Origin: an uncultured virus (IMG/VR IMGVR_UViG_3300037963_003337)
Taxonomy: Duplodnaviria > Heunggongvirae > Uroviricota > Caudoviricetes
Length of the DNA stretch: 20,000 nucleotides
Reading direction: 5' to 3' (one strand)
Virus record (IMG/VR): IMGVR_UViG_3300037963_003337
Positions 3,001-19,256 of the stretch are shown piece by piece. A model generated the notes under the pieces. The model did not search any database. It saw only the letters and a program-made list of their open reading frames with translations, and was not told the DNA's origin. A program made the position numbers and the translations under genes. Positions within the stretch are counted from its first letter, which is position 1; every line of letters begins with the position of its first letter.

Positions 3001-3327
3001 TTTACAGTATCACAACCTGATCCATTAAATCCACAGCAAACATTCTTTAAACCACAAGATTTTACTGAGGATCTTAAAACTGGTGTTAGTGGCAATCTTT
3101 CATTCAGCACCAAAATTAAGCAAGATGGTGTTGATATAACTAGTTTACTGAGTATTAATCATGCTGCTGATACCTTCTCTTATACAGGGGTAAGTTTCCC
3201 ACCTGATGGTGCAACTATTGATATTGAAGTAACAACTGTTGAACAAGGATTTGAAACGACTTTAACAGGTGGTGTTGTAACTGCTCAACAATTAAGAAAC
3301 GTAGGTTGGATCGTAAGGACTGCATAA
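1..3327 (+). CDS. Large leucine-rich-repeat virion/fibre-like protein (5'-truncated by the window; frame is open from base 1)
   Basis: Frame 1 has no stop from base 1 (RSKIQCLTNLGLDIRDL...). Many LRR units occur: LTEIIVSGNLIGEMP, LTTINLSSNPL, LSSLSFYASRLDGMIP, LEQVNLSGNNFSGNI, LQYFIASNNQMTGQFP, LRSLDLSNNSM. The N-terminal '...NLGL' motif resembles that of the two neighbouring large proteins. Confidence 0.8.
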   Translation, partial: RSKIQCLTNLGLDIRDLNVIRGINESVDKLDLQNVSGLDVNLTRYLDRLKSDTGLYSGIVNELGGYQYTLQGNLEAFGPLSGGAVRFKYIPNDKGTGLTKNDLKFGDISTSRVSSWSGSSSDETDDEQAISYGASVQVRGTVKVGQKGSFTPGATEATINVLDTPEPIRFATEVATDVLEVELNGNTRYIYAMRGIPIIFTTAFKNVSMDFKFNTIPSGNPVFTLQATDGSEAEIQSTPPVSGGTSRLRYNGPSYKERFVKVYYPPNNITGITAKSLNIRELPAVKFFELTEIIVSGNLIGEMPDWRSITYAYDRDVTTNSPESNLTTINLSSNPLNQTDDEDLEFFGTNVVERLPKKLTTYYGNGTYNAHTTFKTINESCALVVTQSEYNSISVDPTTKQTYNFSQTLTSGASNVTTHIEGIYYDKQVHPITGAYYLYIKEPVITKDSSWTADNLKTDAEWRNAFAANGINNYGEYFLPLNLATRCPNLQTFQMRNASGRRIYKNTNTRGPLPSGATKNIEYQTSQEYTPTVDLETIRTYDVYDNNYTKLSDIFVNPGSYISGSSTLKTFNVSENEGLSEPADSINFSKMTAISSISITDTALPIPSGLAGNSSLSSLSCSYTRFPVRSQSNPIAYNIQHPSGGYVDANGDGNPSNATNHLFNTKWPTLESEYALTGCSSLSSLSFYASRLDGMIPKFVGNTNLKSIDFRYTSIEGGRPKDPSGNLSGRRYVMWDDTFEDAQGMTTIRIRSANLGRNIGIYDPATQTYSQAAFQGSTFNLPLLTTIEIVSTNKLLRGTFFNTSGAPNLVKLYSPSSGWGLDVPNGAPIPSFGSNPNLEQVNLSGNNFSGNIVLTGAGKLREFYVNSNIIQGVDLNNFSGLGNLQYFIASNNQMTGQFPNFSVAAPNIQYISFADNLYGTAGAVAPFTAGLFSQCTRLRSLDLSNNSMNSGTVDDILLEMVSNYNNSPRSGVVVNLQGNAAPSQVIVSTPTTTTTVSIDSFTVSQPDPLNPQQTFFKPQDFTEDLKTGVSGNLSFSTKIKQDGVDITSLLSINHAADTFSYTGVSFPPDGATIDIEVTTVEQGFETTLTGGVVTAQQLRNVGWIVRTA

Positions 3328-8700: not shown

Positions 8701-10298
8701 GTGCCATCATACCTGAAATAGTATTGTTGATCATTATTATAACCGTCGTCAAAGTTAGTATAATCAGGATCAATTTCTACAGTAATAGTATTGACACCAT
8801 TGGATGATGTGCAATTTGTTACATTGTATCTTCTTACACCTTGCTCAGCTTCATACTCCTCATCAGTTGTATTAGCGGGATTAACATCAGTATTTGCAAT
8901 TCTATAATCATAGATGAAATCATTAATCATGATGTTCTGATATACTTCATCACTAACTGTAAACTGTGTAGCATTTACAATTGCATTATCACCAATAAGT
9001 TCGATATCAGTTCTATGTCTATATGAATTAAGATATGTCTTCATATCTTTTCTATCATATGGAGTATATCTTACTACTGCCTTCAATCCTTCAATATTGG
9101 CATTAGGGTTTTTAGAAAATGTACCAGTGTTTAAGGTCAGTGTATATCCACCATTAGGATCAGGTAGAGTTGATGCGTTGAGATTTAATTTATTAAATTC
9201 TTCAGTTACTTCAATATAGAATCTTGGAATCTTTTTTACATCTTCATAATCAAATAAATGTAGAACTCTATATCTCTGTGCAGGAACTTGACCCTCTTGT
9301 ACATCTAAGAATATCAAATCACCATGCTTGATATCCATAGCATCTTCAAGATGCACCTCAACCAATTGTCTGGTAGGGTCATTATAAATGTTTAGAATTT
9401 CATCAACTTGATTTAGTTTGTATTGTGTCGTCTGCTCACTGAGGGTGTTATTACCATCCAGAAAACTAAACACAAAATCATCTGGAGCACCATATCTCAC
9501 TGACTGGAATGACTGAGATGATGGATCCTGAAACTTAAAGATTGTGCTACCAGTAGTATTAATTAAGAATGTGGTAATGCCTGCTACTGTTGGTTTATAG
9601 AATCCCTGCCAATTAGTACCACCAAAGAGAGATAGGAATGATGATTGTAACTTATCACTGTATACAAAGTTTCCTTGCTCCCAGAAGTTATCACTCAGTG
9701 TGGTAATATTGCCATCACTATCAATCTCATCATCAAAGAATAGATCTGTAACTGGTCCTACAGATAACCACTGATTCTCAGATCCACCTGGAACATCTGC
9801 TTCACCGACTCGGATTCTACGCCATAGTTGATTATTATATGATACAATATCACCAATTTTGTAACTACCAAGAGTGTCTAAGTTTGAACTATATGCTGGT
9901 GCATCTCTTACAATATTCTTATCGTCATAGTATTTGACATTAGGACCATCACCACCTAAGAAGAATGGTTCTCCTGTGGAGAAGTATGCTGCATCTAATC
10001 TATTCTTGATCTTGATGAGTGGTCTGTATACTTTAGGGTTAGAACTGTTATCAATGATACCATTGTCAACAATAGTAAATGCTACAGTTACACCATCCAA
10101 ACTAGCAAAGGTGCTCGCAGTAATATTTGTAATGTAAATGCCCTGAATGGGTTCTAAGTCAGTAGTAGTGAAAGAACTCTCACTACCAAGCATCGTTGGG
10201 TTTGATAAAATATTATTAAGTGCTGCTGTTGCCGAGGGCAAATCAGACAGGTTCAAGTCCCTTCTTAATCCAAATTGATTAAACTGCTTCTGAGCCAT
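5715..10298 (-). CDS. Large virion structural / receptor-binding-like protein with PA14-like and CBM5/12-like segments
   Basis: 1527 aa, S/T/N/G-rich. N-terminus FGLRRDLNLSDLPSATAALNNIL is fibre-anchor-like. YKIGDIVSYNNQLW...PGGSENQW is CBM-like and GGTNWQGFYKPTVAGITTF is PA14-like. A late-type promoter lies upstream. Confidence 0.75.
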   Translation of the reverse strand: MAQKQFNQFGLRRDLNLSDLPSATAALNNILSNPTMLGSESSFTTTDLEPIQGIYITNITASTFASLDGVTVAFTIVDNGIIDNSSNPKVYRPLIKIKNRLDAAYFSTGEPFFLGGDGPNVKYYDDKNIVRDAPAYSSNLDTLGSYKIGDIVSYNNQLWRRIRVGEADVPGGSENQWLSVGPVTDLFFDDEIDSDGNITTLSDNFWEQGNFVYSDKLQSSFLSLFGGTNWQGFYKPTVAGITTFLINTTGSTIFKFQDPSSQSFQSVRYGAPDDFVFSFLDGNNTLSEQTTQYKLNQVDEILNIYNDPTRQLVEVHLEDAMDIKHGDLIFLDVQEGQVPAQRYRVLHLFDYEDVKKIPRFYIEVTEEFNKLNLNASTLPDPNGGYTLTLNTGTFSKNPNANIEGLKAVVRYTPYDRKDMKTYLNSYRHRTDIELIGDNAIVNATQFTVSDEVYQNIMINDFIYDYRIANTDVNPANTTDEEYEAEQGVRRYNVTNCTSSNGVNTITVEIDPDYTNFDDGYNNDQQYYFRYDGTTSEYSIQAQDELDNKKIDTTYTTGSLNHTLFSGNTYNNLLHVARMGELTTRQRYIRISQYLDRYVDYVFDWTFFMKDDDVDTNSNNKAWIIRQRTETSGGYGRLTYKQLYEKDYEFYQIGDFKTFLDNSVLSGGTSREDGVDQRAFGKKQLISAGDQYNILYSLLPIKSIYTPQESWGAVTLSRSGNIDADSRLFNINNSTDVEVGNYLVQDSTDGHVGTSTIPLGTRVIDVLADSNSIVLSKEANVGSNTSYNVTVFDHRGFVTTANHTLLSPTGETLPLTDQVNQTTSYTVLTVPEDKIDEIDLGHVIVFKNATQTTYCRATRFEKIADNELAIEFDDQMPYPAGGGTDGGLCAIYRDRGIDITKPLEQFCTGSACAQNNYDATTDKVKTKYILIDVDMSGNANVAGIDIRWNETSTTQGGGQNGYRGNTGDPEDPYRKLLDRTGSKDRTSITTNEFANTYQDSVAYWCDGAAGNRDAWGMADLQGGTGAGSVVNHIQNTFIGCKKYGGNQVFANLNGTKLKLKLIEDGFVNFANGYTTPMVTIGSMEGFVRVSGNVWGDTTSTSLNIKYYMVVRLNDSISSWDDLEDDFLVDGTTKRCKFINLQEYESSLFDLRNVYLSRHQDFTLPQANKIGSVSGPNGNGEISNLNQLSTFYNAWLNDAGYNSSNPGNSAYPDRMVKITSDITLSASSYNGVNLTGNAAGTASTDIEMFYSTSHRSFVRNNNAGTAVEYVLPAGSYIKSFSTTSKFLWYPEFDAASNWEPLYSYPGVTPAQASSSGGTLTTTLVDQGTRTYTDNNGQVQTINTPQKSINLFPADNIIISPAESPNTWSENPSRKRYMHYRNSFYEILPVDREIDQDIWKGLRILHENADNSSSGANGALSPFILNSTNKLSVYTFANTVLESKELCCPPLDTSPPFDSSEIGLSTTILNPDFHVAGLINVRSLSATHPESKIFGIPSNITNAQLPVNEKVEVVFGGIKYDLLFGTSKPF

Positions 10299-10362: not shown

Positions 10363-10614
10363 ATGGACTTTCAAAAGTATCTCGACAATCTCACCAACCA
10401 ATTGAAGGCAGTCAATGCTGACATCGTAGAGAAACAGGAGGAACTGGACAAACTCAAGGAGTTTCGGTCTCGTATCAAGGGAGGACTAGAAGTGGTCAAC
10501 CAGATCGAGTCAGACAACAAACCAGAGGAACGTCCACCATTGCAATTGCAGCAGGAGATCCGTAATGAGATCCAAGAACTGCAACGCCATGGTGGTGACA
10601 TGGACGCACTGTGA
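10363..10614 (+). CDS. Hypothetical coiled-coil protein
   Basis: 83 aa with a heptad pattern (LTNQLKAVNADIVEKQEELDKLKEFRSRIKGGLEVV). Confidence 0.75.
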   Translation: MDFQKYLDNLTNQLKAVNADIVEKQEELDKLKEFRSRIKGGLEVVNQIESDNKPEERPPLQLQQEIRNEIQELQRHGGDMDAL

Positions 10615-10668
10615 CAGTGTACAAACCGCCACACCACAGGTCGCCAAGGACCAGGTGTTCGCTACAAT
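10611..10668 (+). promoter_or_regulatory. Dyad-promoter unit 1: GTGACAGT-GTACAA-ACCGCCAC ... TCGCCA-N16-TACAAT
   Basis: Dyad at 10611-10632, -10 at 10663-10668. Confidence 0.65.
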
Positions 10669-10694
10669 ATGAACATACACAAGGGAACACCACC

Positions 10695-11108
10695 ATGTAC
10701 AACACCACACTGACCGCCGAGAAGATTGAGGACTACACAGTAATGCTGTGTGATGCTCTCTACATGAACTTCAAAGAGTACAACATTCGTGCTCATCAGC
10801 GTTCTATCAACATGGGTGAGGACAACACTGGTTACCATGCTCGTAAGATCGAAGAGATCAAAGAGAACGGTGCTGACATTGAGTTCTACACCAAGAGAGG
10901 TAAGCGTTACCTGAAGATCATTATGAAGGACAGTGGTGGTTCCAATAGCGTCCATGCCTTCGTTGATCGTGAGACAGGTGATGTGTACAAGGCAGCATCC
11001 TGGAAGCAACCTGCTAAGATTGCTCGTTTCTCTCTCCTGCAGGACAGTGACCGTGAGTGGTTGTACCTCCACGCTGACTGGTCTGGTGGTTACCTCTACA
11101 TCCGCTGA
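10695..11108 (+). CDS. Conserved phage early protein (GKRYLKI...SVHAFVD..TGDVYKAASWK.PAK family)
   Basis: Start re-called at ATG 10695, after the promoter and a CA-rich leader. The motif is one I recognise from myovirus hypothetical proteins. Confidence 0.8.
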   Translation: MYNTTLTAEKIEDYTVMLCDALYMNFKEYNIRAHQRSINMGEDNTGYHARKIEEIKENGADIEFYTKRGKRYLKIIMKDSGGSNSVHAFVDRETGDVYKAASWKQPAKIARFSLLQDSDREWLYLHADWSGGYLYIR

Positions 11109-11110
11109 TC

Positions 11111-11314
11111 ATGGACGATATCACACGTAAGAGGTTGATCAATGCATTGTGTGCAGAGTGGGAATACTGCCTGCACAATGTATTTGAAGTTGACGGTGAG
11201 TGCATGAATCTCGAAGAGTATCGCCTTATGCTAGAATGCTACAATGACGATGATCTACTGAACATAGTAGGTGACGTTGACCACTATCTTAATCAATGGG
11301 GTGTTTGGAAATGA
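11111..11314 (+). CDS. Hypothetical acidic protein
   Basis: 67 aa ORF tightly packed between its neighbours. Confidence 0.7.
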   Translation: MDDITRKRLINALCAEWEYCLHNVFEVDGECMNLEEYRLMLECYNDDDLLNIVGDVDHYLNQWGVWK

Positions 11315-11832
11315 AGAATCTAGACAATCTTCCACTAGGCACGTGTGTATGCTCCAAGTGTGGGGAGCGTAAATCTAATATTGAATTCTCATGGTATGCC
11401 AATAGGTTTACCAAGGATGGTAAGCGTCTACGTGTCAATACAATCTGTGACACATGTTCCTCTCGCACTGCTAAGGAACTTGCTGCCATTAAGAGAACGA
11501 TAGTGAAGCAGCATCCACGTCCTGCATATGGTGAGAACTGTGCCATCTGTGATAAACCCGTGTACAAGAACAAAGCATCTGTACCTGATGGTGTAGATGG
11601 TACGTGGGGATGGCAATGTGACCATGATCATGCATCTGGTCAGTTCAGAGGATGGTTGTGTAAGAAGTGCAACACGGGATTAGGAGCACTAGGTGATGAT
11701 CTGGAGTCCATTCTTCGTGCTGTACAATACCTTGCCAAGCAAGATGACCTAGAAATCTACACTGTATGGAACGGTGGTAAGAGTAGAATTGCGTCTAAGG
11801 TCAATAAAGAGTACCTGAAACGCGGAGAATAA
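11311..11832 (+). CDS. Endonuclease VII-family HNH nuclease with N-terminal Zn ribbon (possible free-standing homing endonuclease)
   Basis: CAIC...CDHDHASGQFRGWLCKKCNTGLGALGDD is the EndoVII signature. CSKC and CDTC lie upstream. The ATG overlaps the previous TGA (ATGA). Confidence 0.85.
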   Translation: MKNLDNLPLGTCVCSKCGERKSNIEFSWYANRFTKDGKRLRVNTICDTCSSRTAKELAAIKRTIVKQHPRPAYGENCAICDKPVYKNKASVPDGVDGTWGWQCDHDHASGQFRGWLCKKCNTGLGALGDDLESILRAVQYLAKQDDLEIYTVWNGGKSRIASKVNKEYLKRGE

Positions 11833-11851
11833 ATACATTGCGTTCACACGC

Positions 11852-11880
11852 TTGACAATATTCCGTAAATGACTTAAACT
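11852..11880 (+). promoter_or_regulatory. Sigma70 early promoter TTGACA-N17-TAAACT
   Basis: Perfect -35 and 17-bp spacer, upstream of the ATG at 11905. Confidence 0.75.
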
Positions 11881-11904
11881 TTACCCGTTCACGCATTTTC
11901 CACT

Positions 11905-12087
11905 ATGTACAGCACTACTACTATTGTTGATCGTTCTGTGTATTACGTAGAAGAGATCACATATGAGTCCGCCTTTGAGTGTGACCATGATGAAGAAGGA
12001 TGGTATGTCGAACTATCTTTCAGCGATGGTGGTTATGATGTGTACGGACCATATCATTCTAAAGAGGAGGCATCCAATGTTTTTTGA
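11905..12087 (+). CDS. Hypothetical acidic protein
   Basis: 60 aa; GWY...VYGPYHSKEEA motif; follows a promoter. Confidence 0.7.
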   Translation: MYSTTTIVDRSVYYVEEITYESAFECDHDEEGWYVELSFSDGGYDVYGPYHSKEEASNVF

Positions 12088-12229
12088 CTCTACCTATGAC
12101 CTATTTGATGAGAAGGCAGCAGAAGAAGCACACAAGTGTGCAATGGAACTAGAAAAGCGTGCTGCTGAACTAGAAGTAACAGTTGACTATTTTATTGAGG
12201 AATTTGACATTGATGAATTCGAGATTTGA
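12077..12229 (+). CDS. Small cyanophage protein (LEKRAAELEVTVDYFIEEF)
   Basis: Start re-called at ATG 12077, with SD GAGGAGG at 12064-12070. Confidence 0.75.
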   Translation: MFFDSTYDLFDEKAAEEAHKCAMELEKRAAELEVTVDYFIEEFDIDEFEI

Positions 12230-12398
12230 TCTCACTCCCCAGGAAGTCAGTATCCTGATGGCGTCAATGCAGTGCATGACAAAAAGTGAAGAGGCACATG
12301 CAGGACCACCATTAGTGGTCTCTCGCCTCTATAATAAATTGTATACTCGACATGAGTACCTACTTCGTCTCCAACAAGATTATGAACCCGACATTTGA
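12213..12398 (+). CDS. Hypothetical protein
   Basis: ATG at 12213, preceded by GAGG; overlapping operon packing. Confidence 0.65.
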   Translation: MNSRFDLTPQEVSILMASMQCMTKSEEAHAGPPLVVSRLYNKLYTRHEYLLRLQQDYEPDI

Positions 12399-12621
12399 TC
12401 AAGACATGGTGTTTGCTCCTCTTCCCATGAAGAAACCAGCAGCACCAACGATGCAATCGCATCGGGACAGTAAGCACACATGGAAACTGGTGTTGCACAA
12501 GGACAATGGTGATAAACTCATCAGGTTCTGCAGCACCAAGAAACATGCTCTTGCTGTGGGTCGAGCAGTACATAATGCCAAGACCCGTCCAACTAAAATG
12601 TTTAGTGTAACCAAAGCATGA
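12382..12621 (+). CDS. Hypothetical basic protein
   Basis: ATG at 12382 overlaps the upstream gene end; its stop overlaps the next ATG. Confidence 0.6.
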   Translation: MNPTFDQDMVFAPLPMKKPAAPTMQSHRDSKHTWKLVLHKDNGDKLIRFCSTKKHALAVGRAVHNAKTRPTKMFSVTKA

Positions 12622-12815
12622 AAACAAGAGAAGAACCACAACCAGGAGCATATACCTGGAATCCTCGTAAAGAGATTGAGTACATTAAGAAGGCACTCAA
12701 GCAAGATCATCTGTACACTGATGATGAGATTAGACATCTCAAGTCACGCTTACGTGATATGTACATTGTCAACAAACAAATGAAGAGAGGACCAGGTTTT
12801 GGCAGAGCATCCTGA
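12618..12815 (+). CDS. Small cyanophage protein (IKKALKQDHLYTDDEIRHLK...GFG)
   Basis: ATGA coupling to the upstream gene; motif typical of cyanomyovirus hypothetical proteins. Confidence 0.75.
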   Translation: MKTREEPQPGAYTWNPRKEIEYIKKALKQDHLYTDDEIRHLKSRLRDMYIVNKQMKRGPGFGRAS

Positions 12816-13032
12816 AATTGCTGAATACGAGTGGATCGATGATTGTTTCCGTGTATGGGAGACAAGATACGGTCTATGGCAATCAGAAACAAAAGAAGGA
12901 CGTAGTATGCTAACTGGTCTTCACAAAGACAATGTTATTATGATGACTCGATGGCACCTCAAGTGTGAGCAAGAGGGTTGGCCAGAAGGAAGTGTACGTG
13001 TACTTGATGTAGACCCAGCAGTAGAACTATGA
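12799..13032 (+). CDS. Small cyanophage protein (EWIDDCFRVWETRYGLW)
   Basis: TTG start preceded by GAGAGGA; motif typical of cyanomyovirus hypothetical proteins. Confidence 0.7.
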   Translation: MAEHPEIAEYEWIDDCFRVWETRYGLWQSETKEGRSMLTGLHKDNVIMMTRWHLKCEQEGWPEGSVRVLDVDPAVEL

Positions 13033-13169
13033 CTGAAAAGAACCAACCAAAGCAAGAGGTAGAAACACAAACTACCATCTTACAAAAGAAAGCAGGAACA
13101 TATGTTGTTCCTAAAGGTAATGCCACACCACAGAAGGGATGGCGTACAGACAATGCACTATCGGATTGA
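13029..13169 (+). CDS. Hypothetical 46-aa protein (MTEKNQPKQEVETQ...)
   Basis: Read manually (below the ORF-track cutoff); ATGA overlap with the upstream stop. Confidence 0.55.
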   Translation: MTEKNQPKQEVETQTTILQKKAGTYVVPKGNATPQKGWRTDNALSD

Positions 13170-13172
13170 ACC

Positions 13173-13331
13173 ATGCCAAAGAAACAACGAATTGATGACA
13201 AGGGCAACACATGGGAGTGGGATGAAACTCCTGAAACTAAGAAAGCACTGAAAAAGTTGCACGATTCCATTGAACGTGCTAAACTTAAGCGAGAGGACGA
13301 TCGAAAGGGATACGACACGTATTCCAAATAA
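13173..13331 (+). CDS. Hypothetical 52-aa protein (MPKKQRIDDKGNTWEWDETPET...)
   Basis: Read manually; begins 3 bp after the previous stop. Confidence 0.65.
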   Translation: MPKKQRIDDKGNTWEWDETPETKKALKKLHDSIERAKLKREDDRKGYDTYSK

Positions 13332-13381
13332 CCCTCTCAGACCCCTCTACAATCCCCTACAACACGCTTTATCACCACATT

Positions 13382-13555
13382 ATGTACGAAGACATCACTG
13401 GCGAATCATTTCAAGCAGATGGTGAGTTTTGGGAGAGTATTTCTCTGCCCTGGGACGACTATGATGATTACTTGCAAAAGGAAGAACTAAATACTACTTC
13501 TTCTAACAAGTACGATGAACTTTCCGAAGAATACTATGTACAATTTGAATCATGA
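13382..13555 (+). CDS. Hypothetical 57-aa highly acidic protein (MYEDITGESFQADGEFWES...)
   Basis: Read manually; CA-rich leader; 17 D/E versus 2 K. Confidence 0.6.
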   Translation: MYEDITGESFQADGEFWESISLPWDDYDDYLQKEELNTTSSNKYDELSEEYYVQFES

Positions 13556-13724
13556 TCATGCGTGTTTAATACGTAATCTATTACACAATGAGCGACTCCA
13601 GTATGCGTATTGCGACAAAGCACTCGATGCCCAGTGGATCAGAACAGTCAACGAAGCAATCGACAGAATGGAACACCCTGACCGATATATCACTACTGAA
13701 ACTGAATCAGGTAGTGATGTATGA
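13536..13724 (+). CDS. Hypothetical protein
   Basis: ORF 13515-13724 with a probable start at ATG 13536. Confidence 0.55.
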   Translation: MYNLNHDHACLIRNLLHNERLQYAYCDKALDAQWIRTVNEAIDRMEHPDRYITTETESGSDV

Positions 13725-13857
13725 GGATACCACTGCAGTGGTCACTTTTGTTGATCCATTATATTGTGTCATTACAAAGGAATCTATGCAGTATGGTATC
13801 ATTATCTACCCACAATTCGCACACCGTGTCAAAGTCAAACAACTCATACCTGGATGA
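13717..13857 (+). CDS. Hypothetical small beta-rich protein (MYEDTTAVVTFVDPLYCVI...)
   Basis: 3' part of ORF 13588-13857; the start position is uncertain. Confidence 0.45.
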   Translation: MYEDTTAVVTFVDPLYCVITKESMQYGIIIYPQFAHRVKVKQLIPG

Positions 13858-14032
13858 ACTCGATGACTACTATCCCAAATTTTTATCAGGTGAACTATCT
13901 GTTAAGGAACAAGTGGATTTTATCCAAACTGTCATTGATCTTGATCTCCAAAAGAGGTACGACCTACACTACATGTGTAAATACTTCATACTTGAAGGAT
14001 TCTGTTACGAGGTAAACACAGGTAATGACTAA
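13793..14032 (+). CDS. Hypothetical protein
   Basis: 3' part of ORF 13721-14032 (LDELDDYYPKFLSGELSVKEQVDFIQ...); the start position is uncertain. Confidence 0.6.
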   Translation: MVSLSTHNSHTVSKSNNSYLDELDDYYPKFLSGELSVKEQVDFIQTVIDLDLQKRYDLHYMCKYFILEGFCYEVNTGND

Positions 14033-14246
14033 TCCAGTACCAGCAGCATATTATACTACTGTATCAAGAGGACAAGTACAATTACGTTCCTCTCAACGTA
14101 GTGGTGTAATACAAACATTTGGTTCCAACATACAAACTGCAATTGTACAAGGAGATCAAATCGTGGCAACCAGTGATAAGGGTGTCACATACATCTATCA
14201 AATAGCAAACAACTACGCTATACTCAAGAAAACATTTTGGAGGTAA
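14025..14246 (+). CDS. Hypothetical beta-strand protein
   Basis: 73 aa, overlapping the upstream stop. Confidence 0.7.
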   Translation: MTNPVPAAYYTTVSRGQVQLRSSQRSGVIQTFGSNIQTAIVQGDQIVATSDKGVTYIYQIANNYAILKKTFWR

Positions 14247-14250
14247 TTCT

Positions 14251-14460
14251 ATGTCATGTTGTCCATCAGGATCTGATCCTCGTAAGTGGGTAGTGCTGTT
14301 CCAACGTCCTGGACGTATAGCAAATATGGATGAATGGTTCGATTCACAACAGGAAGCGGAAAAGAGGTGTGAAGAACTACAAGATATGTTTGATTGGTTG
14401 TATGAAAGGAATAATAAAACTGATGGACCATGCAAAGTATGGGTAGAAGAAAAGATATGA
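14251..14460 (+). CDS. Hypothetical protein (FDSQQEAE motif)
   Basis: SD GGAGG at 14239-14243; 69 aa. Confidence 0.7.
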   Translation: MSCCPSGSDPRKWVVLFQRPGRIANMDEWFDSQQEAEKRCEELQDMFDWLYERNNKTDGPCKVWVEEKI

Positions 14461-14466
14461 TCTAAT

Positions 14467-14664
14467 TTTTCCACAAGAAACTGAAAATGTTTTAATGTTA
14501 AAATAAATATACTTACGTTTTCCACAAGGGTGTGGAAAACTTTGTAAATACTGTGAGTTCTTGTGGTCTTAGCACGCTCGCACCCATTTGTCAAGTTTCC
14601 ACAGACACTAATAAAACTGGCACATCTCGGAGTTTTCCACAGGAATCTCAAAAATTGTGGAAAA
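14467..14664. promoter_or_regulatory. Cluster of cyanobacterial-type DnaA boxes (TTTTCCACA) with an AT-rich tract; oriC-like locus
   Basis: Perfect boxes at 14467(+), 14518(+), 14531(-), 14633(+) and 14656(-); a 1-mismatch box GTTTCCACA at 14595; AT-rich stretch at about 14484-14511; intergenic position. Confidence 0.7.
14566..14623 (-). promoter_or_regulatory. Antisense dyad-promoter unit: GTGCCAGT-TTTATT-AGTGTCTG ... TTGACA-N17-TAAGAC
   Basis: On the - strand: dyad 14623-14602, -35 14594-14589, -10 14571-14566 with extended TG. Confidence 0.6.
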
Positions 14665-14720
14665 CTGTGGTTTTCTGAGAAAAGTGAGAATCCTGACAAA
14701 ATCTGCAGTTTCTGACATAC

Positions 14721-14749
14721 TTGACAGAAGTGCCAGATTCTGCTAGAAT
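14721..14749 (+). promoter_or_regulatory. Strong sigma70 promoter TTGACA-N17-TAGAAT (extended TG)
   Basis: Near-consensus -35 and -10 with a 17-bp spacer. Confidence 0.8.
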
Positions 14750-14795
14750 AACTCTGTTAAGGTTGATAGATATACTATAGGTAGCTTAGAGAGCT

Positions 14796-15212
14796 TTGGA
14801 GTACTTTATTGTAAAGAAACAACATACTGAGATATTGGTGTGGTATCCTCCTATTAGAGGATTCAGACAGATTATACCACAACCATACTTTTCTTTAGAA
14901 CTGGCGAATCGCGTCAGAAAGAGAATGATTCTACCACATGGTAGATATAATCCAGAATATGTAAAAGTTGTCACACGTGACACTTTATCTAAATTACTGG
15001 AAAAAGCACCAGAATGGAAGAAAACTTACAAACCTGCCACTTTTATCAGAGGTGAAAACTTTTCTGAAAAAGGTGAGATTCGTGGTGCTAACTATAATGA
15101 TAAGGGTCACACAGAAGTAGGTGACATTGGTTGGATGAAGTATTCAGATAGAGTATACAACAACAAGGTCTGGGATGTGCAAGAGAAGGACAGTTTTGGA
15201 ACTGGTCCATAG
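14796..15212 (+). CDS. Hypothetical protein
   Basis: 138-aa ORF with a TTG start downstream of a strong promoter. It is unusually rich in promoter-like words, so its coding status is less certain. Confidence 0.5.
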   Translation: MEYFIVKKQHTEILVWYPPIRGFRQIIPQPYFSLELANRVRKRMILPHGRYNPEYVKVVTRDTLSKLLEKAPEWKKTYKPATFIRGENFSEKGEIRGANYNDKGHTEVGDIGWMKYSDRVYNNKVWDVQEKDSFGTGP

Positions 15213-15244
15213 TGGTTGACAAGGTGGGCAATTCGGTGTATTAT
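15187..15244 (+). promoter_or_regulatory. Dyad-promoter unit: AGGACAGT-TTTGGA-ACTGGTCCA ... TTGACA-N17-TATTAT
   Basis: Dyad 15187-15209; -35 15216-15221; -10 15239-15244. Confidence 0.75.
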
Positions 15245-15274
15245 AAGGGAGTCGTTAATCAAAACAACAACATT

Positions 15275-15502
15275 ATGCAAATCGAATTCACTTCATCTTC
15301 CATGCTGCAATCTCCTGTGATTGTTGATACTGACGCTGGAACTGCAACCCTGACCTATAAGAATTCGGGTAAGGATTACACCTACAACATTGATAACAAC
15401 TTCGTGCAAGATTTGCAGGAAACTATCACCAACGAGAAAAGTGTTGGTAAGTTTATCCTAGCAGCACGTGCCGATCGCCGTCTGACTGAAGTGACAGTTT
15501 GA
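15275..15502 (+). CDS. KTSC-like small protein
   Basis: Start re-called at ATG 15275. The pattern SSSML...DTDAGTATLTYKNSGKDYTY...SVGKFI resembles the KTSC domain. Confidence 0.6.
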   Translation: MQIEFTSSSMLQSPVIVDTDAGTATLTYKNSGKDYTYNIDNNFVQDLQETITNEKSVGKFILAARADRRLTEVTV

Positions 15503-15548
15503 TAGGTGTCCACTAGGGGTTGCCAAAGGTGACCCCTTCCCTTATATT
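15491..15548 (+). promoter_or_regulatory. Dyad-promoter unit with stem-loop: GTGACAGT-TTGATA-GGTGTCCAC ... TTGCCA-N17-TATATT
   Basis: Dyad 15491-15513; the inverted repeat AGGGGTTGCC-AAA-GGTGACCCCT (15515-15537) covers the -35. Confidence 0.75.
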
Positions 15549-15570
15549 AAATGAAGTTCAAACAAACCTC

Positions 15571-16092
15571 ATGGGAACACGTTCACGAATTGGTCTTGCA
15601 CTCTCGCTTGATCATATTGTTTCTGTCTATTGTCATTATGACGGATACATTCAACACAATGGACGTAAACTTGTAGAGAAGTTTAACACTCAAGAACTGG
15701 TTGAGGATCTTATCAACGGTGGCGATATGTCATCTCTTGATACTATCCACACGTGGGAATCAGCACCATTGAAACAAATAGTGATCGACGCTGATGGTAA
15801 CAAAACCGTCGAATATATGCGTGACGCTGATGACAACTGGGTTTATTCTCCAGTGAAAGCAACATCATCCCCACAGTATTATTCTGAGAGGGGTGAAGAT
15901 TGCCCTCCACAATTCACCAACTTTGATGAGTTTATCGCTGGTAATTGTGGAGAGGAATGGTGTTACTTATTCACCCCTAATCGTGGGTGGCAGTGTTGGA
16001 AACTCGGTTGGGGTGATACTAACACTTTAGAGTATGATTTCATCACTGAGGAACCATCTCAGGAATTGTCAACCGATACTGTGACAGTTTGA
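15571..16092 (+). CDS. Conserved phage protein (MGTRSRIG...SVYCHYDGY...G..L family)
   Basis: Start re-called at ATG 15571. The YCHxDGY and EEWCYLF motifs are typical of a widespread phage hypothetical family. Confidence 0.8.
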   Translation: MGTRSRIGLALSLDHIVSVYCHYDGYIQHNGRKLVEKFNTQELVEDLINGGDMSSLDTIHTWESAPLKQIVIDADGNKTVEYMRDADDNWVYSPVKATSSPQYYSERGEDCPPQFTNFDEFIAGNCGEEWCYLFTPNRGWQCWKLGWGDTNTLEYDFITEEPSQELSTDTVTV

Positions 16093-16140
16093 GAGGTGGC
16101 ACGGGGGGGATGGCACGATTCACCCCCCTGTGGTTATACT
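16081..16140 (+). promoter_or_regulatory. Dyad-promoter unit: GTGACAGT-TTGAGA-GGTGGCAC ... G7/C6 stem ... TATACT
   Basis: Dyad 16081-16102; -10 16135-16140. Confidence 0.7.
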
Positions 16141-16146
16141 GTGTGC

Positions 16147-16350
16147 ATGGACAAAGAAACCATGAACGAAACCCAATTGACCTTCCTACGTGAGCAACTG
16201 CAGGAGTCGCTGTGCTGCTGGCGTGAGGTTAACGACCTGCCCGAGTTCGTAGACGAGGAATTGTGTGACCTCGTGCTGGCGTGCTTCATTGAGGCAGGTG
16301 AGTGTGACAGTGTGGAAACTGTCCCTGATGAGTCCACAGGGTGGCAGTGA
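16147..16350 (+). CDS. Hypothetical acidic Cys-rich protein
   Basis: ATG at 16147 (or 16162) after the -10 box. Confidence 0.65.
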   Translation: MDKETMNETQLTFLREQLQESLCCWREVNDLPEFVDEELCDLVLACFIEAGECDSVETVPDESTGWQ

Positions 16351-16361
16351 CCCCCTATAAT
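16304..16361 (+). promoter_or_regulatory. Dyad-promoter unit embedded in a gene end: GTGACAGT-GTGGAA-ACTGTCCC ... TATAAT
   Basis: Dyad 16304-16325; -10 16356-16361. Confidence 0.7.
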
Positions 16362-16367
16362 AAACTC

Positions 16368-16997
16368 ATGAGCAACCAACCAACCATGCACGACACAAAG
16401 AACATCCTCGCCATGTACATGCAGGCAACGCCTGTTGATACTCAAGAGGGTACGGTATGGTATAACAATGCCCACAAGATCTGCAAGGGTCTCAGTGACA
16501 AATACAAGATGCCACTTTCTACAGTTGTTGGTGTTGTATCTGCTCTCAGTCCTAATAACAAATGGGACAGAAACATTCTTGATGCTGAGCAAATGATTCG
16601 TGCATATGCTCTAGGATATGACTATCCTAAGGTTTGCACATTCACTAGCAACAAAGACAAAGCAATGACTATCCTAGAGTGTGAAATTGACTCTAGCGAT
16701 AACATTTGTGCCATTCTCAAGGGTAACAAAACCATTGCATTCTTCCGTGGTATACTTACTGACGGACAGTGTGATGAGATCACTGTTGATGGTCACGCCT
16801 TCAATATCTGGCGTGGTATGTACACTTCACTCAATGAGGTTCCCGCTATCAGCAACAAACTGTACAAATCAATTAGTGATGCCTACCGTCAGGCGGCAGT
16901 TACTATCAACGAAATTGAAGACACAAACTATTCACCCGCCCAGATTCAAGCGATCACATGGGTTACCCATCGGCGTGTGAATGGTGTTGTTAAGTGA
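16368..16997 (+). CDS. HhH-GPD/endonuclease III-like (DNA glycosylase-fold) phage protein
   Basis: Motifs EGTVWY, GVVSALSPNNKWDRN, GNKTIAF, ITVDGHA (compare VDTHV) and PAQIQAITW. Start is 16368 or 16386. Confidence 0.6.
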   Translation: MSNQPTMHDTKNILAMYMQATPVDTQEGTVWYNNAHKICKGLSDKYKMPLSTVVGVVSALSPNNKWDRNILDAEQMIRAYALGYDYPKVCTFTSNKDKAMTILECEIDSSDNICAILKGNKTIAFFRGILTDGQCDEITVDGHAFNIWRGMYTSLNEVPAISNKLYKSISDAYRQAAVTINEIEDTNYSPAQIQAITWVTHRRVNGVVK

Positions 16998-17107
16998 CAT
17001 CAATCCTAACCCTAATCCTCGCCCTTGTTATTATCTTGGGCGGGGTTGAACTTGCTTATTTTTTGCTCGTTCAGTTTCTATCACTATTTGCAGGACGGTC
17101 TAGATAG
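16994..17107 (+). CDS. 37-aa membrane peptide (MTSILTLILALVIILGGVELAYFLLVQFLSLFAGRSR)
   Basis: Read manually; GTGA overlap with the upstream stop; almost fully hydrophobic. Confidence 0.5.
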   Translation: MTSILTLILALVIILGGVELAYFLLVQFLSLFAGRSR

Positions 17108-17149
17108 TGGCACACACCCCGTTGCCAAGTCCCCTCTGTGCCCTATAAT
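17092..17149 (+). promoter_or_regulatory. Dyad-promoter unit: AGGACGGT-CTAGAT-AGTGGCAC ... TTGCCA-N16-TATAAT
   Basis: Dyad 17092-17113; -35 17122-17127; -10 17144-17149. Confidence 0.75.
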
Positions 17150-17155
17150 AAGGAC

Positions 17156-17365
17156 ATGAACAACAAACCACTCAAACCAGTCCACAACGGCATGTTCCTC
17201 GTGAACGAGACCGCTGCTAAAGATGACCTCTGCCAGCAGGTCATGGCATCCTACATCGCAACACTCAAAGCAGAGGCAGAGTATCGCGACAGAGTGAGAG
17301 CAGGTCTAGAACCTGCACCACGTACCCAGAACTGGGGAACCTGGAACATCAGCGACCGCCACTAA
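17156..17365 (+). CDS. Hypothetical protein (C-terminal WNISDRH), probably leaderless
   Basis: ATG begins 7 nt after the last base of the -10 box. Confidence 0.75.
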   Translation: MNNKPLKPVHNGMFLVNETAAKDDLCQQVMASYIATLKAEAEYRDRVRAGLEPAPRTQNWGTWNISDRH

Positions 17366-17380
17366 GGCGGTCTTTTTTTT
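17354..17380 (+). terminator. Rho-independent terminator
   Basis: GACCGCC-ACTAA-GGCGGTC followed by T8. Confidence 0.9.
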
Positions 17381-17449
17381 GCCCTGCCTTTCCTATTTTG
17401 GGCTCTACCTTCACTCTAGCACAGGGTGCCCACCTTATAGGGACAGCAT

Positions 17450-17507
17450 GTGCCACTTTCTGAACTGGTCACCCACCCCTTGGCAGTGGTCCCCCTGCTG
17501 CTATAAT
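17450..17507 (+). promoter_or_regulatory. Dyad-promoter unit: GTGCCACT-TTCTGA-ACTGGTCAC ... TTGGCA-N16-TATAAT
   Basis: Dyad 17450-17472; -10 17502-17507. Confidence 0.75.
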
Positions 17508-17530
17508 AAGATCAAGCAACACACAACACC

Positions 17531-17791
17531 ATGGACAACACTTACAACGGTTGGGCAAACTACGAAACCTGGAATGCCTTCCTTTGGATCGGCAACGATG
17601 AGTTTCTCTACAACACCGCTAAGGCGTGTGTGACATACGTGGGCGACAATGAGACCCCCTGGGATAAGTTCGTGCGCTGCATGACAGACGGCATGATCGG
17701 ACGGTTCATGGGTGAGACAGGCGACGGCGTGCGGTGGGATGACCCCACCATCGATGCAGACGCCATGAACGCTGCAATGGTCGAACTCTGA
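17531..17791 (+). CDS. Conserved phage protein (YNGWANYETW...LWIGNDE family)
   Basis: Recognisable motif of a widespread phage early hypothetical family; CA-rich leader. Confidence 0.85.
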   Translation: MDNTYNGWANYETWNAFLWIGNDEFLYNTAKACVTYVGDNETPWDKFVRCMTDGMIGRFMGETGDGVRWDDPTIDADAMNAAMVEL

Positions 17792-17835
17792 ACTGTCCAC
17801 TAGGGGGGTGACAGCATCCCCCTGCCCTCTATAAT
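17792..17835 (+). promoter_or_regulatory. Half-dyad promoter unit with stem-loop: ACTGTCCAC ... GTGACA-N16-TATAAT
   Basis: Right arm 17792-17800; hairpin AGGGGGGTG-ACAG-CATCCCCCT 17802-17823; -10 17830-17835. Confidence 0.7.
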
Positions 17836-17858
17836 AAGACCAAGCAACACAACAGACC

Positions 17859-18065
17859 ATGGCAACAGCAGATTTCGCAGTTCAACCCGCATCCTTCGGC
17901 AAGTTCGACGAGTGGGGTTGCGACTGGGCGACAGACATCAATCACGCCTATCGCCTCGCTGCCACCTATGGAGAGGATGCCGTCATCTGGCGCTGTCCTC
18001 ATCAGGGCAACCCCATGGCATGGGTCCGTGTTAACAATGGTAACGAGACCGCCACCGCTGTCTGA
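17859..18065 (+). CDS. Hypothetical protein
   Basis: 68 aa, following a promoter and a CA-rich leader. Confidence 0.75.
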   Translation: MATADFAVQPASFGKFDEWGCDWATDINHAYRLAATYGEDAVIWRCPHQGNPMAWVRVNNGNETATAV

Positions 18066-18101
18066 TCAGCGTCTAGAATTCACACAACAGCAATCAACCC
18101 C

Positions 18102-18218
18102 ATGCGTTCCCTTCTCGTCATCCTCTTCGCTCTCTTCGTTGGTGCCGCCTATGGCGACTATATGATCGAAGGCGTCCGCTCAGGAATGGACCTCATCGAA
18201 CAACAGCGCCAATCCTGA
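18102..18218 (+). CDS. 38-aa membrane-anchored peptide (MRSLLVILFALFVGAAYGDYMIEGVRSGMDLIEQQRQS)
   Basis: Read manually; CA-rich leader; N-terminal hydrophobic helix. Confidence 0.65.
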   Translation: MRSLLVILFALFVGAAYGDYMIEGVRSGMDLIEQQRQS

Positions 18219-18263
18219 AACTGTCCATTGGCCGCGGCGGATAGACACCGCCCCGCCTATACT
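18206..18263 (+). promoter_or_regulatory. Dyad-promoter unit: GCGCCAAT-CCTGAA-ACTGTCCAT ... GGCGG/CCGCC stem ... TATACT
   Basis: Dyad 18206-18228; -10 18258-18263; no recognisable -35. Confidence 0.65.
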
Positions 18264-18287
18264 AAAGAAGTCAACCAAAACGACACC

Positions 18288-18458
18288 ATGCCCGTTTCCG
18301 ACGCCTATCTGATGGATCTCCAGATCGAAGATCTGATGTATGATCAAATCGATGCTCAAGAGTTGGAGGACTGCGACCTTCCCGACTGGTTCACCGCTGA
18401 CGATGATCAGGACCTGGAAGCGTTCTCCCTTGAATGCGCCTTCGGACCAGAGGAGTGA
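18288..18458 (+). CDS. 56-aa extremely acidic protein
   Basis: Start re-called at ATG 18288; 19 D/E and no K/R. Confidence 0.7.
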   Translation: MPVSDAYLMDLQIEDLMYDQIDAQELEDCDLPDWFTADDDQDLEAFSLECAFGPEE

Positions 18459-18513
18459 CAATCGAGGGGGTGTCCACTAAGACCCCCCTTCCCTCCACTC
18501 CCCCCCTTATAAT
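18455..18513 (+). promoter_or_regulatory. Dyad-promoter unit: GTGACAAT-CGAGGG-GGTGTCCAC ... C-rich spacer ... TATAAT
   Basis: Dyad 18455-18477; -10 18508-18513; no -35. Confidence 0.7.
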
Positions 18514-18535
18514 AAACACAGTTCAAACAAACAAC

Positions 18536-18715
18536 ATGACCAAGCAAGAATCCTTCCAAGCAGCACGCAACGTGATCACTGGCAAGCGTGGCGACGTGAC
18601 CCGCAAGGGACTGATGACTGCCGCCATGGCAAACGGACGCTCTGCTGAGCAGGTCGCCAAGGCATCCACCATGCGTCTCGCCTTCTGGGTGGGGGTTGGC
18701 AAGTCCGCCATCTGA
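18536..18715 (+). CDS. Small basic protein
   Basis: Start re-called at ATG 18536, after the leader GTTCAAACAAACAAC. Confidence 0.7.
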   Translation: MTKQESFQAARNVITGKRGDVTRKGLMTAAMANGRSAEQVAKASTMRLAFWVGVGKSAI

Positions 18716-18727
18716 TGCTAGGATCTG

Positions 18728-18774: not shown

Positions 18775-19005
18775 ATGTTCACTTTCCTCGAAAAAATCAC
18801 AGGCAACGTGAGATTTTATGTTTCACGCCCTAGCAGTGCATTAGAAGGCATTGAGTTCTATCCACTAACTGGCACCGCCTATTGTGATTGGAAATCAGGC
18901 AGTGAATCTCAGCATAAGTGTAAGAAACGCCACATGCTGTTGGCATCACTTCCAATGGTAAGTTTGGGACGCTTCGCTAACACTTACCTGAAGTACGCTA
19001 ATTAA
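18775..19005 (+). CDS. KTSC-like small protein
   Basis: Start re-called at ATG 18775. PSSALEGIEFYPLTGTAYCDWKSG...SLGRFANTYLK resembles the KTSC pattern. Confidence 0.55.
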   Translation: MFTFLEKITGNVRFYVSRPSSALEGIEFYPLTGTAYCDWKSGSESQHKCKKRHMLLASLPMVSLGRFANTYLKYAN

Positions 19006-19078
19006 CACTAACTCAGGGGGCACTAAGTAACACTAACTGTGCCCCACTAAGTAACACTAACTCTCCGACACTAAGTAA
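18996..19078 (+). repeat. Iteron-like direct repeats CACTAAGTAACACTAACT, 24-25 bp period
   Basis: Copies at 18996 (2 mismatches), 19021, 19045 and 19069 (10 nt only), separated by 6-7 nt variable GC-rich spacers. Confidence 0.9.
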
Positions 19079-19256
19079 AAACCAGTTATGGCGATTAGCG
19101 CCCTTATATGTTATTGGCCGCTACGGTTAAAATCCATGGGTCCCTCCTAACCTACAAAGGTCCCCGTCCGACCTTGTATTTTCGCAATATCAAAAAATTT
19201 TTCGGGGGTAAAAATCGCCGTATAGGTTGATATATAAAAAGGTTGCTAAGAAACTA

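What the first reader, a model, noticed from the sequence alone, without database searches (positions are those of the whole stretch)
14461..14750. Host-type DnaA-box cluster (oriC mimic or DnaA sink) in a T4-like cyanophage
Seen: a ~290 bp intergenic gap contains five perfect TTTTCCACA nonamers (14467+, 14518+, 14531-, 14633+, 14656-) and a 1-mismatch copy (14595). Four of them form inverted pairs: GTTTTCCACA-AGGG-TGTGGAAAAC (14517-14540) and AGTTTTCCACA-N14-TGTGGAAAACT (14631-14666). An AT-rich tract lies at ~14484-14511. At uniform composition a given 9-mer is expected about 0.15 times on both strands of 20 kb. Established: TTTTCCACA is the DnaA-box consensus of cyanobacterial oriC, whereas T4-type phages encode their own replisome and initiate via R-loops and recombination without DnaA. 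Inference: the phage either recruits host DnaA to open an early origin, titrates DnaA (datA-like) to shut off host replication, or uses DnaA to regulate the flanking promoters.
Basis: partly seen in the sequence, partly recalled or inferred. Interest (0 to 1): 0.85.

Follow-up and report, generated by a model that had tools for sequence, protein, structure and literature searches.

The report
Helically phased DnaA boxes in cyanophage
A T4-like virus of marine cyanobacteria keeps perfect binding sites for DnaA, the host protein that starts DNA copying, lined up on one face of the helix with a conserved control motif and an AT-rich stretch, which makes this cassette the best, still unproven, candidate for where these viruses start replicating.

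Summary
Confirmed: five perfect TTTTCCACA boxes in 200 bp (0 of 300 simulated windows had even two). A scan for the motif alone found >=2 perfect boxes beside 48 of 59 genuine copies and 0 of 27 look-alikes; 11 of 21 cultured cyanomyoviruses carry a box cluster, none of 13 phage genomes tested encodes DnaA. Boxes and A-tract are phased to the motif at about 10.5 bp, pair spacers are quantised (4/14), and non-cyanobacterial phages show the same pairs spelled TTATCCACA, so host DnaA is the probable binder and an RNA hairpin is unlikely. It is not an oriC copy: no box-plus-trio unwinding module (1/67 vs 12/30 hosts), AT tract on the wrong side, boxes dispensable in several phages. Best reading: T4 oriF-like promoter/unwinding-element origin with DnaA as optional phased helper (0.4); rivals: DnaA-controlled promoter, sink. 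No function tested. Not found in the papers searched; this scan already reported the element in at least eight other cyanophage genomes.

The parts
14467..14475 (+). Perfect DnaA box; lineage-variable, 99 bp left of the core motif (in phase)
   Evidence: kept in L123, shifted by 10 bp in L128/L129, absent in L124/126/127/130; phase
14484..14511 (.). AT-rich tract with TAAAT/A-tract motif; candidate DNA-unwinding element or bend
   Evidence: TAAAT[GA] in 50 of 67 elements on this side vs 5 of 67 on the other; phased to the motif; unwinding role inferred
14518..14539 (.). Inverted DnaA-box pair, 4-bp spacer (+14518, -14531); + box 48 bp left of the core motif
   Evidence: spacer 4 is one of two preferred classes
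14566..14594 (-). Conserved core motif GTCTTAGC..TGTCAA = leftward sigma70-like promoter (-35 TTGACA 14594-14589, 17 bp, TG-extended -10 TAAGAC 14571-14566) pointing into the boxes and AT tract; the -10 lacks the usual last T
   Evidence: promoter activity inferred, not shown; not listed by the consensus scan
14595..14603 (+). 1-mismatch DnaA box abutting the -35 of the leftward motif (this lineage only)
14601..14623 (+). Copy of the two-fold operator-like motif found upstream of the early promoters at 15.5-18.5 kb
   Evidence: read by eye; name of the motif recalled (Doron et al. 2016, not held) and given in earlier finding e1-5344406
14633..14664 (.). Inverted DnaA-box pair, 14-bp spacer (+14633, -14656); the most conserved pair in this lineage, + box 67 bp right of the motif (same phase)
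   Evidence: present in 7 of 7 relatives with coverage; arms invariant, spacer variable
14721..14749 (+). Rightward sigma70 promoter (TTGACA-17-TAGAAT, TG extension), back to back with the leftward motif
   Evidence: 11 of 12 matches; a similar promoter within 280 bp in 46 of 67 elements
14251..14460 (+). Upstream 69-aa ORF, no family
   Evidence: conserved in relatives
14796..15212 (+). Downstream 138-aa ORF, no family
   Evidence: conserved in relatives
10600..18720 (+). Context: cyanomyovirus cluster of small early-type ORFs, with repeated promoter units from 15.2 to 18.7 kb
   Evidence: 'early' timing recalled, not tested

Best explanation
The stretch is a single-copy nucleoprotein-assembly cassette of cyanomyoviruses. 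Its fixed core is a leftward promoter-like motif plus an AT/A-tract 20-110 bp downstream of it; host DnaA binds the perfect boxes that sit on the same helical face. Most likely mechanism: a T4 oriF/oriG-like origin in which host sigma70 RNA polymerase makes a leftward RNA that forms an R-loop in the AT tract and primes the phage replisome (gp59-loaded gp41), while bound DnaA is an optional architectural helper that bends or stresses the DNA and may stop the transcript at the boxes, tying the first round of phage replication to host DnaA availability. Shown: sequence, conservation, phasing, absence of phage DnaA, presence of gp59, absence of the host unwinding module. Inferred: DnaA binding (about 0.85), promoter activity, R-loop, origin function, the role of DnaA.
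For: Box identity with the cyanobacterial consensus that Cyanothece DnaA domain IV binds (PMC4674748 passages). Motif-only scan: >=2 perfect boxes within -250..+200 of 48 of 59 genuine motifs vs 0 of 27 look-alikes. Phasing to the motif across 33 lineage clusters: + box R(10.5)=0.57, TAAAT 0.57, A-tract 0.67, p<=0.0002; the window's three + boxes fall at -99, -48, +67; the distance between the two pairs is 115, 135 or 145 bp in relatives. Pair spacers in phase classes 3-6/13-16: 86 of 102 vs 23 of 64 for a scrambled control. Same pair geometry with TTATCCACA in other phages, 74 of 94. One cluster per genome: 5 of 7 perfect boxes of the 186-kb relative G063 lie in it; G063 has gp23 and gp59 and no DnaA domain IV. 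Promoter plus downstream AT-rich element is the minimal T4 oriF/oriG anatomy (PMC3016281 passages). Local GC skew flips at the motif (+0.40 to -0.30).
Against: No replication or transcription data. The leftward -10 never has the -7 T (0 of 67, 0 of 27 in the subset not selected on it), and in S-SM2, S-CAM9 and P-TIM68 the -35 is displaced, so the motif may be a protein site rather than a promoter. The AT tract is only moderately AT-rich on average (75% vs 63%). Boxes are missing beside the motif in P-SSM4, S-H9-1, P-RSM4, S-CAM7, S-CAM9 and in 9 of 67 elements, and neither part was found in P-SSM2, S-SSM7, P-HM1, S-SKS1, S-CRM01. The minus-strand box and the rightward promoter are not phased to the motif (p about 0.33). 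The phages have their own helicase loader (4 of 5), so DnaA is not needed for loading. In non-cyano phages the pairs lie beside early-type promoters or terminase genes more often than beside replication genes.
Confidence: 0.4

Rival explanations
1. DnaA-controlled transcription switch: DnaA on the phased boxes represses or terminates the leftward (antisense) transcript and/or tunes the rightward early promoter, letting the phage read the host's cell-cycle or diel state; the cassette is not an origin.
For: Boxes flank back-to-back promoters inside the early cluster; in this lineage a box abuts the leftward -35 and a pair lies 57-88 bp upstream of the rightward -35; in other phages TTATCCACA pairs sit upstream of early-type promoters and DUF932 genes; a picocyanobacterial genome has four non-oriC box elements around back-to-back -35 hexamers.
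Against: In most lineages the boxes lie 40-130 bp downstream of the leftward motif and >100 bp from the rightward promoter, and the rightward promoter is not phased; a conserved AT/A-tract between motif and boxes is not needed for simple repression.
Confidence: 0.25
2. datA-like DnaA sink: many phage genome copies with perfect boxes out-compete host oriC and stop host initiation.
For: Phage elements carry 143 perfect boxes in 67 elements, host oriC only 10 in 30 (mostly degenerate); a close perfect inverted pair occurs in 4 of 41 host genomes and one host genome has only 17 perfect boxes in 3 Mb; some phage lineages stack 5-8 boxes; pairs occur in many unrelated phages.
Against: A sink need not be phased to, or tied to, one promoter/AT cassette; most elements have only 2-3 boxes; the sink would be strong only after phage replication has begun (inference). 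It may be a side effect of either main reading.
Confidence: 0.14
3. The nonamer is bound by a phage or other host protein and only resembles a DnaA box.
For: Tandem repeats of other sequence replace the boxes in S-CAM7, S-CAM9 and L214; the variant spectrum matches host oriC only weakly (Spearman 0.40, p=0.04; hosts vary position 7, phages hardly); T4 oriE has iterons (PMC3016281).
Against: Exact identity with the cyanobacterial consensus, TTATCCACA among the variants, and the switch to TTATCCACA with the same geometry in non-cyanobacterial phages.
Confidence: 0.1
4. DARS-like site: head-to-head boxes make ADP-DnaA release ADP and so re-activate the host initiator.
For: E. coli DARS1/2 cores are + box, - box 14 bp on, - box 12 bp on (PMC6868365 and PMC5742627 passages); 7 of 67 phage elements have a 13 then 10-12 triad; canonical pairs in other phages centre on a 5-bp spacer.
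Against: Exact DARS spacing in 0 of 67; the commonest pair is 23 bp apart; the opposite pair orientation is also common and quantised; the window has no triad.
Confidence: 0.06
5. RNA or single-strand hairpin: the inverted pairs are stems of a small RNA or terminator.
For: The minus strand 14455-14560 folds at -21.5 kcal/mol, z=-3.3; 44 of 67 elements have a close inverted pair.
Against: Arms are invariant with no compensatory change; 14 of 67 elements have boxes but no close inverted perfect pair; spacers are quantised by helical turns and the 22 distinct 14-bp spacers do not extend the stem; no Rfam match, no terminator call.
Confidence: 0.03

Closest known systems
Bacteriophage T4 oriF(uvsY)/oriG(34) R-loop origins, and oriE (PMC3016281, passages read)
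   Same: Promoter with a downstream A+T-rich element in about 100-150 bp; T4-type replisome with gp59; oriE uses an early promoter and has spaced repeats.
   Different: T4 oriF/G need MotA middle promoters; the review passages hold no mention of DnaA and T4 has no box cluster; here the promoter points against the local genes, lacks the -7 T, and carries phased host DnaA boxes; origin activity untested.
Cyanobacterial oriC upstream of dnaN with its basal unwinding system (PMC4674748, PMC8287927, passages read)
   Same: Same box sequence, tandem boxes at 11-12 bp, neighbouring AT-rich DNA.
   Different: No DnaA-trios after a box (1 of 67 vs 12 of 30), AT tract on the 5' side of the nearest box in 53 of 57, boxes more perfect than the host's, no dnaN/dnaA nearby.
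E. coli datA, DARS1 and DARS2 (PMC5742627, PMC6868365, passages read)
   Same: Non-origin cluster of 2-5 boxes with fixed spacing, oppositely oriented pair.
   Different: Spacing 13 or 23 rather than 14 then 12; no IHF/Fis sites tested (cyanobacteria lack IHF: recalled); carried by a lytic phage.
DnaA-assisted plasmid and plasmid-prophage origins: RK2 oriV, P1 oriR, pBR322 (all recalled, no paper read)
   Same: Host DnaA boxes used as an accessory next to an element-specific site and an AT-rich region; helical phasing matters in RK2; pBR322 couples an R-loop primer with a DnaA box.
   Different: No Rep protein or iteron array identified; lytic phage with its own polymerase, helicase and loader.

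Membership tests
DnaA-box array (cyanobacterial type) | 9-mers matching TTTTCCACA, clustered beyond chance, in non-coding DNA | tested here: met
   (71 of 102 pair loci outside long ORFs vs 13 of 64 controls)
DnaA-box array (cyanobacterial type) | Bound by host DnaA | not testable with these tools
   inferred from consensus, host-matched spelling, hosts encode DnaA (4 of 4), phages do not (0 of 13)
Bacterial oriC (basal unwinding system) | DnaA box followed within 16 bp on its 3' side by >=3 DnaA-trios | tested here: not met
   strict test 1 of 67 phage elements (null mean 0.9) vs 12 of 30 host dnaN-upstream regions (null 0.6); loose test 26 of 67, below null 36; regex 0 of 67 vs 18 of 30
Bacterial oriC (basal unwinding system) | AT-rich DNA on the 3' (CACA) side of the anchoring box | tested here: not met
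   AT tract on the 5' side in 53 of 57 box-bearing elements; the window's non-conserved box 14467 is an exception
T4 oriF/oriG-type R-loop origin | Promoter with a downstream A+T-rich unwinding element | tested here: inconclusive
   -35 and 17-bp spacing conserved (25 of 27 TTGAC[AT]) and AT tract downstream, but no -7 T and no RNA data
T4 oriF/oriG-type R-loop origin | MotA-dependent middle promoter | not tested
   cyanomyoviruses are recalled to lack MotA/AsiA; not searched
T4 oriF/oriG-type R-loop origin | Persistent R-loop and replication initiation at the site | not testable with these tools
   only assembled contigs were available
DARS | Three boxes: + box, - box 14 bp on, - box 12 bp further | tested here: not met
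   0 of 67 exact, 7 of 67 one base shorter; none in the window
datA | DnaA titration/ATP hydrolysis with an IHF site between boxes | not testable with these tools
   needs biochemistry; IHF site not searched
Structured RNA / terminator | Covarying stem, Rfam match or stem plus U-tract | tested here: not met

The most novel reading that the evidence does not exclude
Lytic phages with their own replisome widely co-opt the host initiator DnaA as a sequence-specific, helically phased DNA-shaping protein: in cyanomyoviruses at an R-loop origin that thereby fires only when host DnaA is available, and in unrelated phages at early promoters or packaging regions, with the box spelling tracking the host's DnaA.
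Probability: 0.3. Interest if true: 0.85.

Novelty: new variant of a known kind. Interest (0 to 1): 0.66.

Why it matters
Where and how T4-like cyanophages, among the most abundant viruses in the sea, start replication is unmapped as far as the papers searched show, and T4's own origin mechanism is described without DnaA. The cassette gives one 300-bp address in cultured models (Syn9 52.6 kb, S-PM2d 9.7 kb, Syn33 46.7 kb) and natural controls that keep the core but lack boxes (P-SSM4, S-H9-1). If DnaA is used, phage replication could be tied to the host's light-driven cell cycle and DnaA would be a host-range or resistance factor; if it is a sink, it is a DNA-only way to shut off host replication. 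Syn9's record annotates the cassette as two hypothetical genes, so it has been hidden by annotation.

Tried and rejected
No whole genome was held for the window; the nearest record G001 is a 45-kb fragment with one box. blastn of the region and tblastn of the 73-aa neighbour found no cultured phage. Rfam: two sub-threshold hits, neither in the element. Reads: only assembled contigs; RNA runs held at most 6% of the words, one relative's RNA contig covers 14651-15162 but gives no strand or start, so no evidence either way. Hit counts alone do not separate real from control patterns (control 112 loci in a full scan; real patterns stopped at about 120), only spacer classes, context and extra boxes do. 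Terminase association of TTATCCACA pairs: 14 of 56 loci vs 4 of 51 controls (p=0.02) but about 8 lineages after merging relatives by eye (p=0.23), and I scanned 74 of 140 and 84 of 98 listed ORFs: inconclusive. Contig ends near the element show no common position, so no support for a fixed genome end. Reading the core motif as DnaA-trios was considered and rejected: no box precedes it in the right orientation. Tandem perfect boxes were found in only 7 of 61 picocyanobacterial genomes, so the host non-oriC element is not general. PMC12122000 and PMC6359870 passages held nothing useful. Doron et al. 2016 is not held.

Full report
Observation. Loose matches over the whole window are at chance (13 vs 15.4); the clustering is not: 0 of 300 simulated windows had two perfect boxes within 200 bp, against five here. 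The stretch lies between a 69-aa and a 138-aa ORF of no family, in a cluster of small same-strand ORFs with repeated promoter units. ORF 17531 hits 230 phage records, 217 of them named Synechococcus phage, Cyanophage or Prochlorococcus phage; the 186-kb relative G063 has T4 gp23 and gp59. The genome is therefore a cyanomyovirus.

Conservation. Eight loci were found through the neighbouring 73-aa protein; the 7 that reach the element all keep the 14-bp-spacer pair, one is cut short. The arms are invariant and the spacer varies; indels break any reading frame. The two pairs are 115, 135 or 145 bp apart in relatives and the outer box moves by 10 bp. Whole-record scans found two or more perfect boxes within about 30 bp in 11 of 21 cultured cyanomyoviruses (S-PM2, Syn33, ACG-2014d, Syn9, S-SM2, P-SSM7, Syn1, S-SM1, S-ShM2, P-TIM68, S-RIM8), none in the other 10, nor in T4 or HTVC008M. 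No DnaA domain IV was found in 12 named phage records or G063, while 4 of 4 picocyanobacterial genomes have it.

Beside the boxes lies a conserved 29-bp motif (window 14566-14594) that reads on the minus strand as TTGACA, 17 bp, TG-extended TAAGAC. Split by matrix score, 48 of 59 genuine motifs have two or more boxes nearby and 0 of 27 look-alikes do (the matrix was trained on box-bearing copies, which favours this split). In 27 elements not selected on the promoter pattern the -35 is TTGACA or TTGACT in 25, but the -10 never ends in T, so promoter activity stays an inference. The motif scores 30 bits or more in 12 cultured phages, including P-SSM4, S-H9-1 and P-RSM4, which have no perfect box beside it; weaker copies in S-CAM7 and S-CAM9 have other tandem repeats instead; in P-SSM2, S-SSM7, P-HM1, S-SKS1 and S-CRM01 it was not found in the stretches scored or by the whole-record pattern. 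The boxes are thus an optional part of a cassette: motif, AT tract (TAAAT[GA] in 50 of 67 non-redundant elements vs 5 of 67 on the other side), boxes (58 of 67 with at least one, 55 with at least two), and a rightward promoter (46 of 67).

Geometry says protein on double-stranded DNA. Pair spacers fall in classes 3-6 or 13-16 in 86 of 102 non-redundant loci, against 23 of 64 for a scrambled control; extra boxes within 200 bp in 49 of 102 vs 4 of 64. Tandem boxes are 11-12 bp apart. Over 33 lineage clusters the + box, the TAAAT motif and the A-tract are phased to the core motif (R at 10.5 bp 0.57, 0.57, 0.67; p<=0.0002 against uniform positions; related lineages are not fully independent), whereas the nearest minus box and the rightward promoter are not. 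The window's three + boxes lie at -99, -48 and +67, one phase. The hairpin reading fails: although the minus strand folds (z=-3.3), 14 of 67 elements have no close inverted pair, spacers do not extend the stem, nothing covaries, and Rfam has no match.

Is the binder DnaA? TTTTCCACA is the cyanobacterial consensus and is bound by Cyanothece DnaA domain IV (PMC4674748, passages). The phage variants include TTATCCACA but match the host variant spectrum only weakly (rho 0.40). The strongest extra argument: the same pair with the canonical spelling TTATCCACA also fills a scan of viral contigs, with the same two spacer classes (74 of 94) and none of the printed loci carrying the cyanophage motif. 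The hosts of those phages were not determined. I put DnaA binding at about 0.85.

Not an oriC copy. Thirty picocyanobacterial dnaN-upstream regions show degenerate boxes followed by CTA trios and then AT-rich DNA, the basal unwinding system (PMC8287927, passages). A strict box-plus-trio test is met by 12 of 30 hosts (null 0.6) and 1 of 67 phage elements (null 0.9); the AT tract is on the 5' side of the nearest box in 53 of 57 phage elements, opposite to the host. Host origins hold 10 perfect boxes in 30 regions, phage elements 143 in 67. E. coli DARS cores (14 then 12 bp; PMC6868365 passages) are matched exactly by 0 of 67 and within one base by 7.

Mechanism. A promoter with a downstream AT-rich element is the minimal T4 oriF/oriG, whose transcript forms a priming R-loop; oriE uses an early promoter; the review's text has no DnaA (PMC3016281, passages). 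The cassette has that anatomy, is single-copy (5 of 7 perfect boxes of G063) and shows a local skew flip at the motif. As the phages have gp59 (4 of 5) and some lack boxes, DnaA is better read as a phased helper (bending, stressing, or ending the transcript; these DnaA activities, RK2 phasing and the pBR322 precedent are recalled) than as initiator. I give this 0.40, a DnaA-controlled transcription switch 0.25, a sink 0.14, another protein 0.10, DARS-like 0.06, RNA hairpin 0.03. These are not exclusive: perfect boxes in many genome copies would titrate DnaA in any case. Nothing functional was shown; the sequencing runs held only contigs.

Literature and novelty. Ten full-text searches of the open-licence library listed no paper describing DnaA boxes in cyanophage or T4-like genomes; I saw listings and abstract starts only, except for the passages cited. 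Subscription papers are not searched; Doron et al. 2016, with Syn9 start sites and supplements that may bear on the leftward promoter, was not held. Syn9's record annotates the stretch as hypothetical gp86/gp87. This scan has already reported the element in at least eight other genomes; I had reached the promoter-plus-AT reading before that look-up (note). Verdict: real, conserved, a new variant of DnaA-assisted elements in a setting where none is known to me; function open; interest 0.66.

Noticed in passing
L643-L761 (viral contigs): Inverted TTATCCACA pairs with spacers 3-7 or 12-17 occur in many unrelated phages, often intergenic and with extra boxes; flanks include terminase genes (14 of 56 loci, inconclusive against control), DUF932 early genes and some replication genes.
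   Followed up: partly
L469-L591: The reverse pair TGTGGAAAA..TTTTCCACA is quantised at spacers 4 and 10; some phage loci stack 5-8 boxes in 160 bp, a second cluster separate from the core motif.
   Followed up: partly
L473, L478, L492, L005, L031: Contigs of 4.6-5.5 kb (microvirus-sized; not classified) carry inverted TTTTCCACA pairs with degenerate extra boxes, possibly a hairpin DnaA site for complementary-strand priming (recalled ABC-primosome idea).
   Followed up: no
G002:C15:293845-304608 and C24:229172-229484 (L465, L466): A picocyanobacterial genome has four copies of a ~300-bp non-oriC element bounded by DnaA boxes, with back-to-back -35 hexamers, at least one next to a DUF2811 gene; tandem boxes spaced as in the phages. 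Similar hits in G042; 7 of 61 genomes had any tandem.
   Followed up: partly
L435-L464, upstream of dnaN: Picocyanobacterial oriC regions have mostly degenerate boxes (TTTTCCCCA, TTTTCCTCA, ATTTCCACA), clear CTA trios, and by eye a mirror-image trio/box set on the far side of the AT tract.
   Followed up: partly
window 18454-18483: One early-promoter upstream unit resembles the core motif on the minus strand (20 bits), hinting that the core motif and the early operator share an origin.
   Followed up: no
window 18996-19068 and 19146-19160: Three 24-bp repeats and a CCTAACCTACAA motif close the early cluster; the motif recurs at the same place in Syn33, ACG-2014d, Syn9, P-SSM2, S-SSM7, P-SSM4, P-SSM7, S-SM1, P-RSM4, S-RIM8, including phages that lack the DnaA cassette.
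   Followed up: partly
S-CAM7 near 54.0 kb, S-CAM9 near 45.1 kb, L214: Tandem repeats of unrelated sequence stand where the DnaA boxes usually are, next to the core motif.
   Followed up: partly
window 49-3327, 3328-5718, 5715-10298 (-): Three very large ORFs without PHROG match: a leucine-rich-repeat protein (1092 aa) and two probable tail/adhesin proteins, the last on the opposite strand.
   Followed up: no
window 11311-11832: Free-standing endonuclease VII-family gene inside the small-ORF cluster.
   Followed up: no
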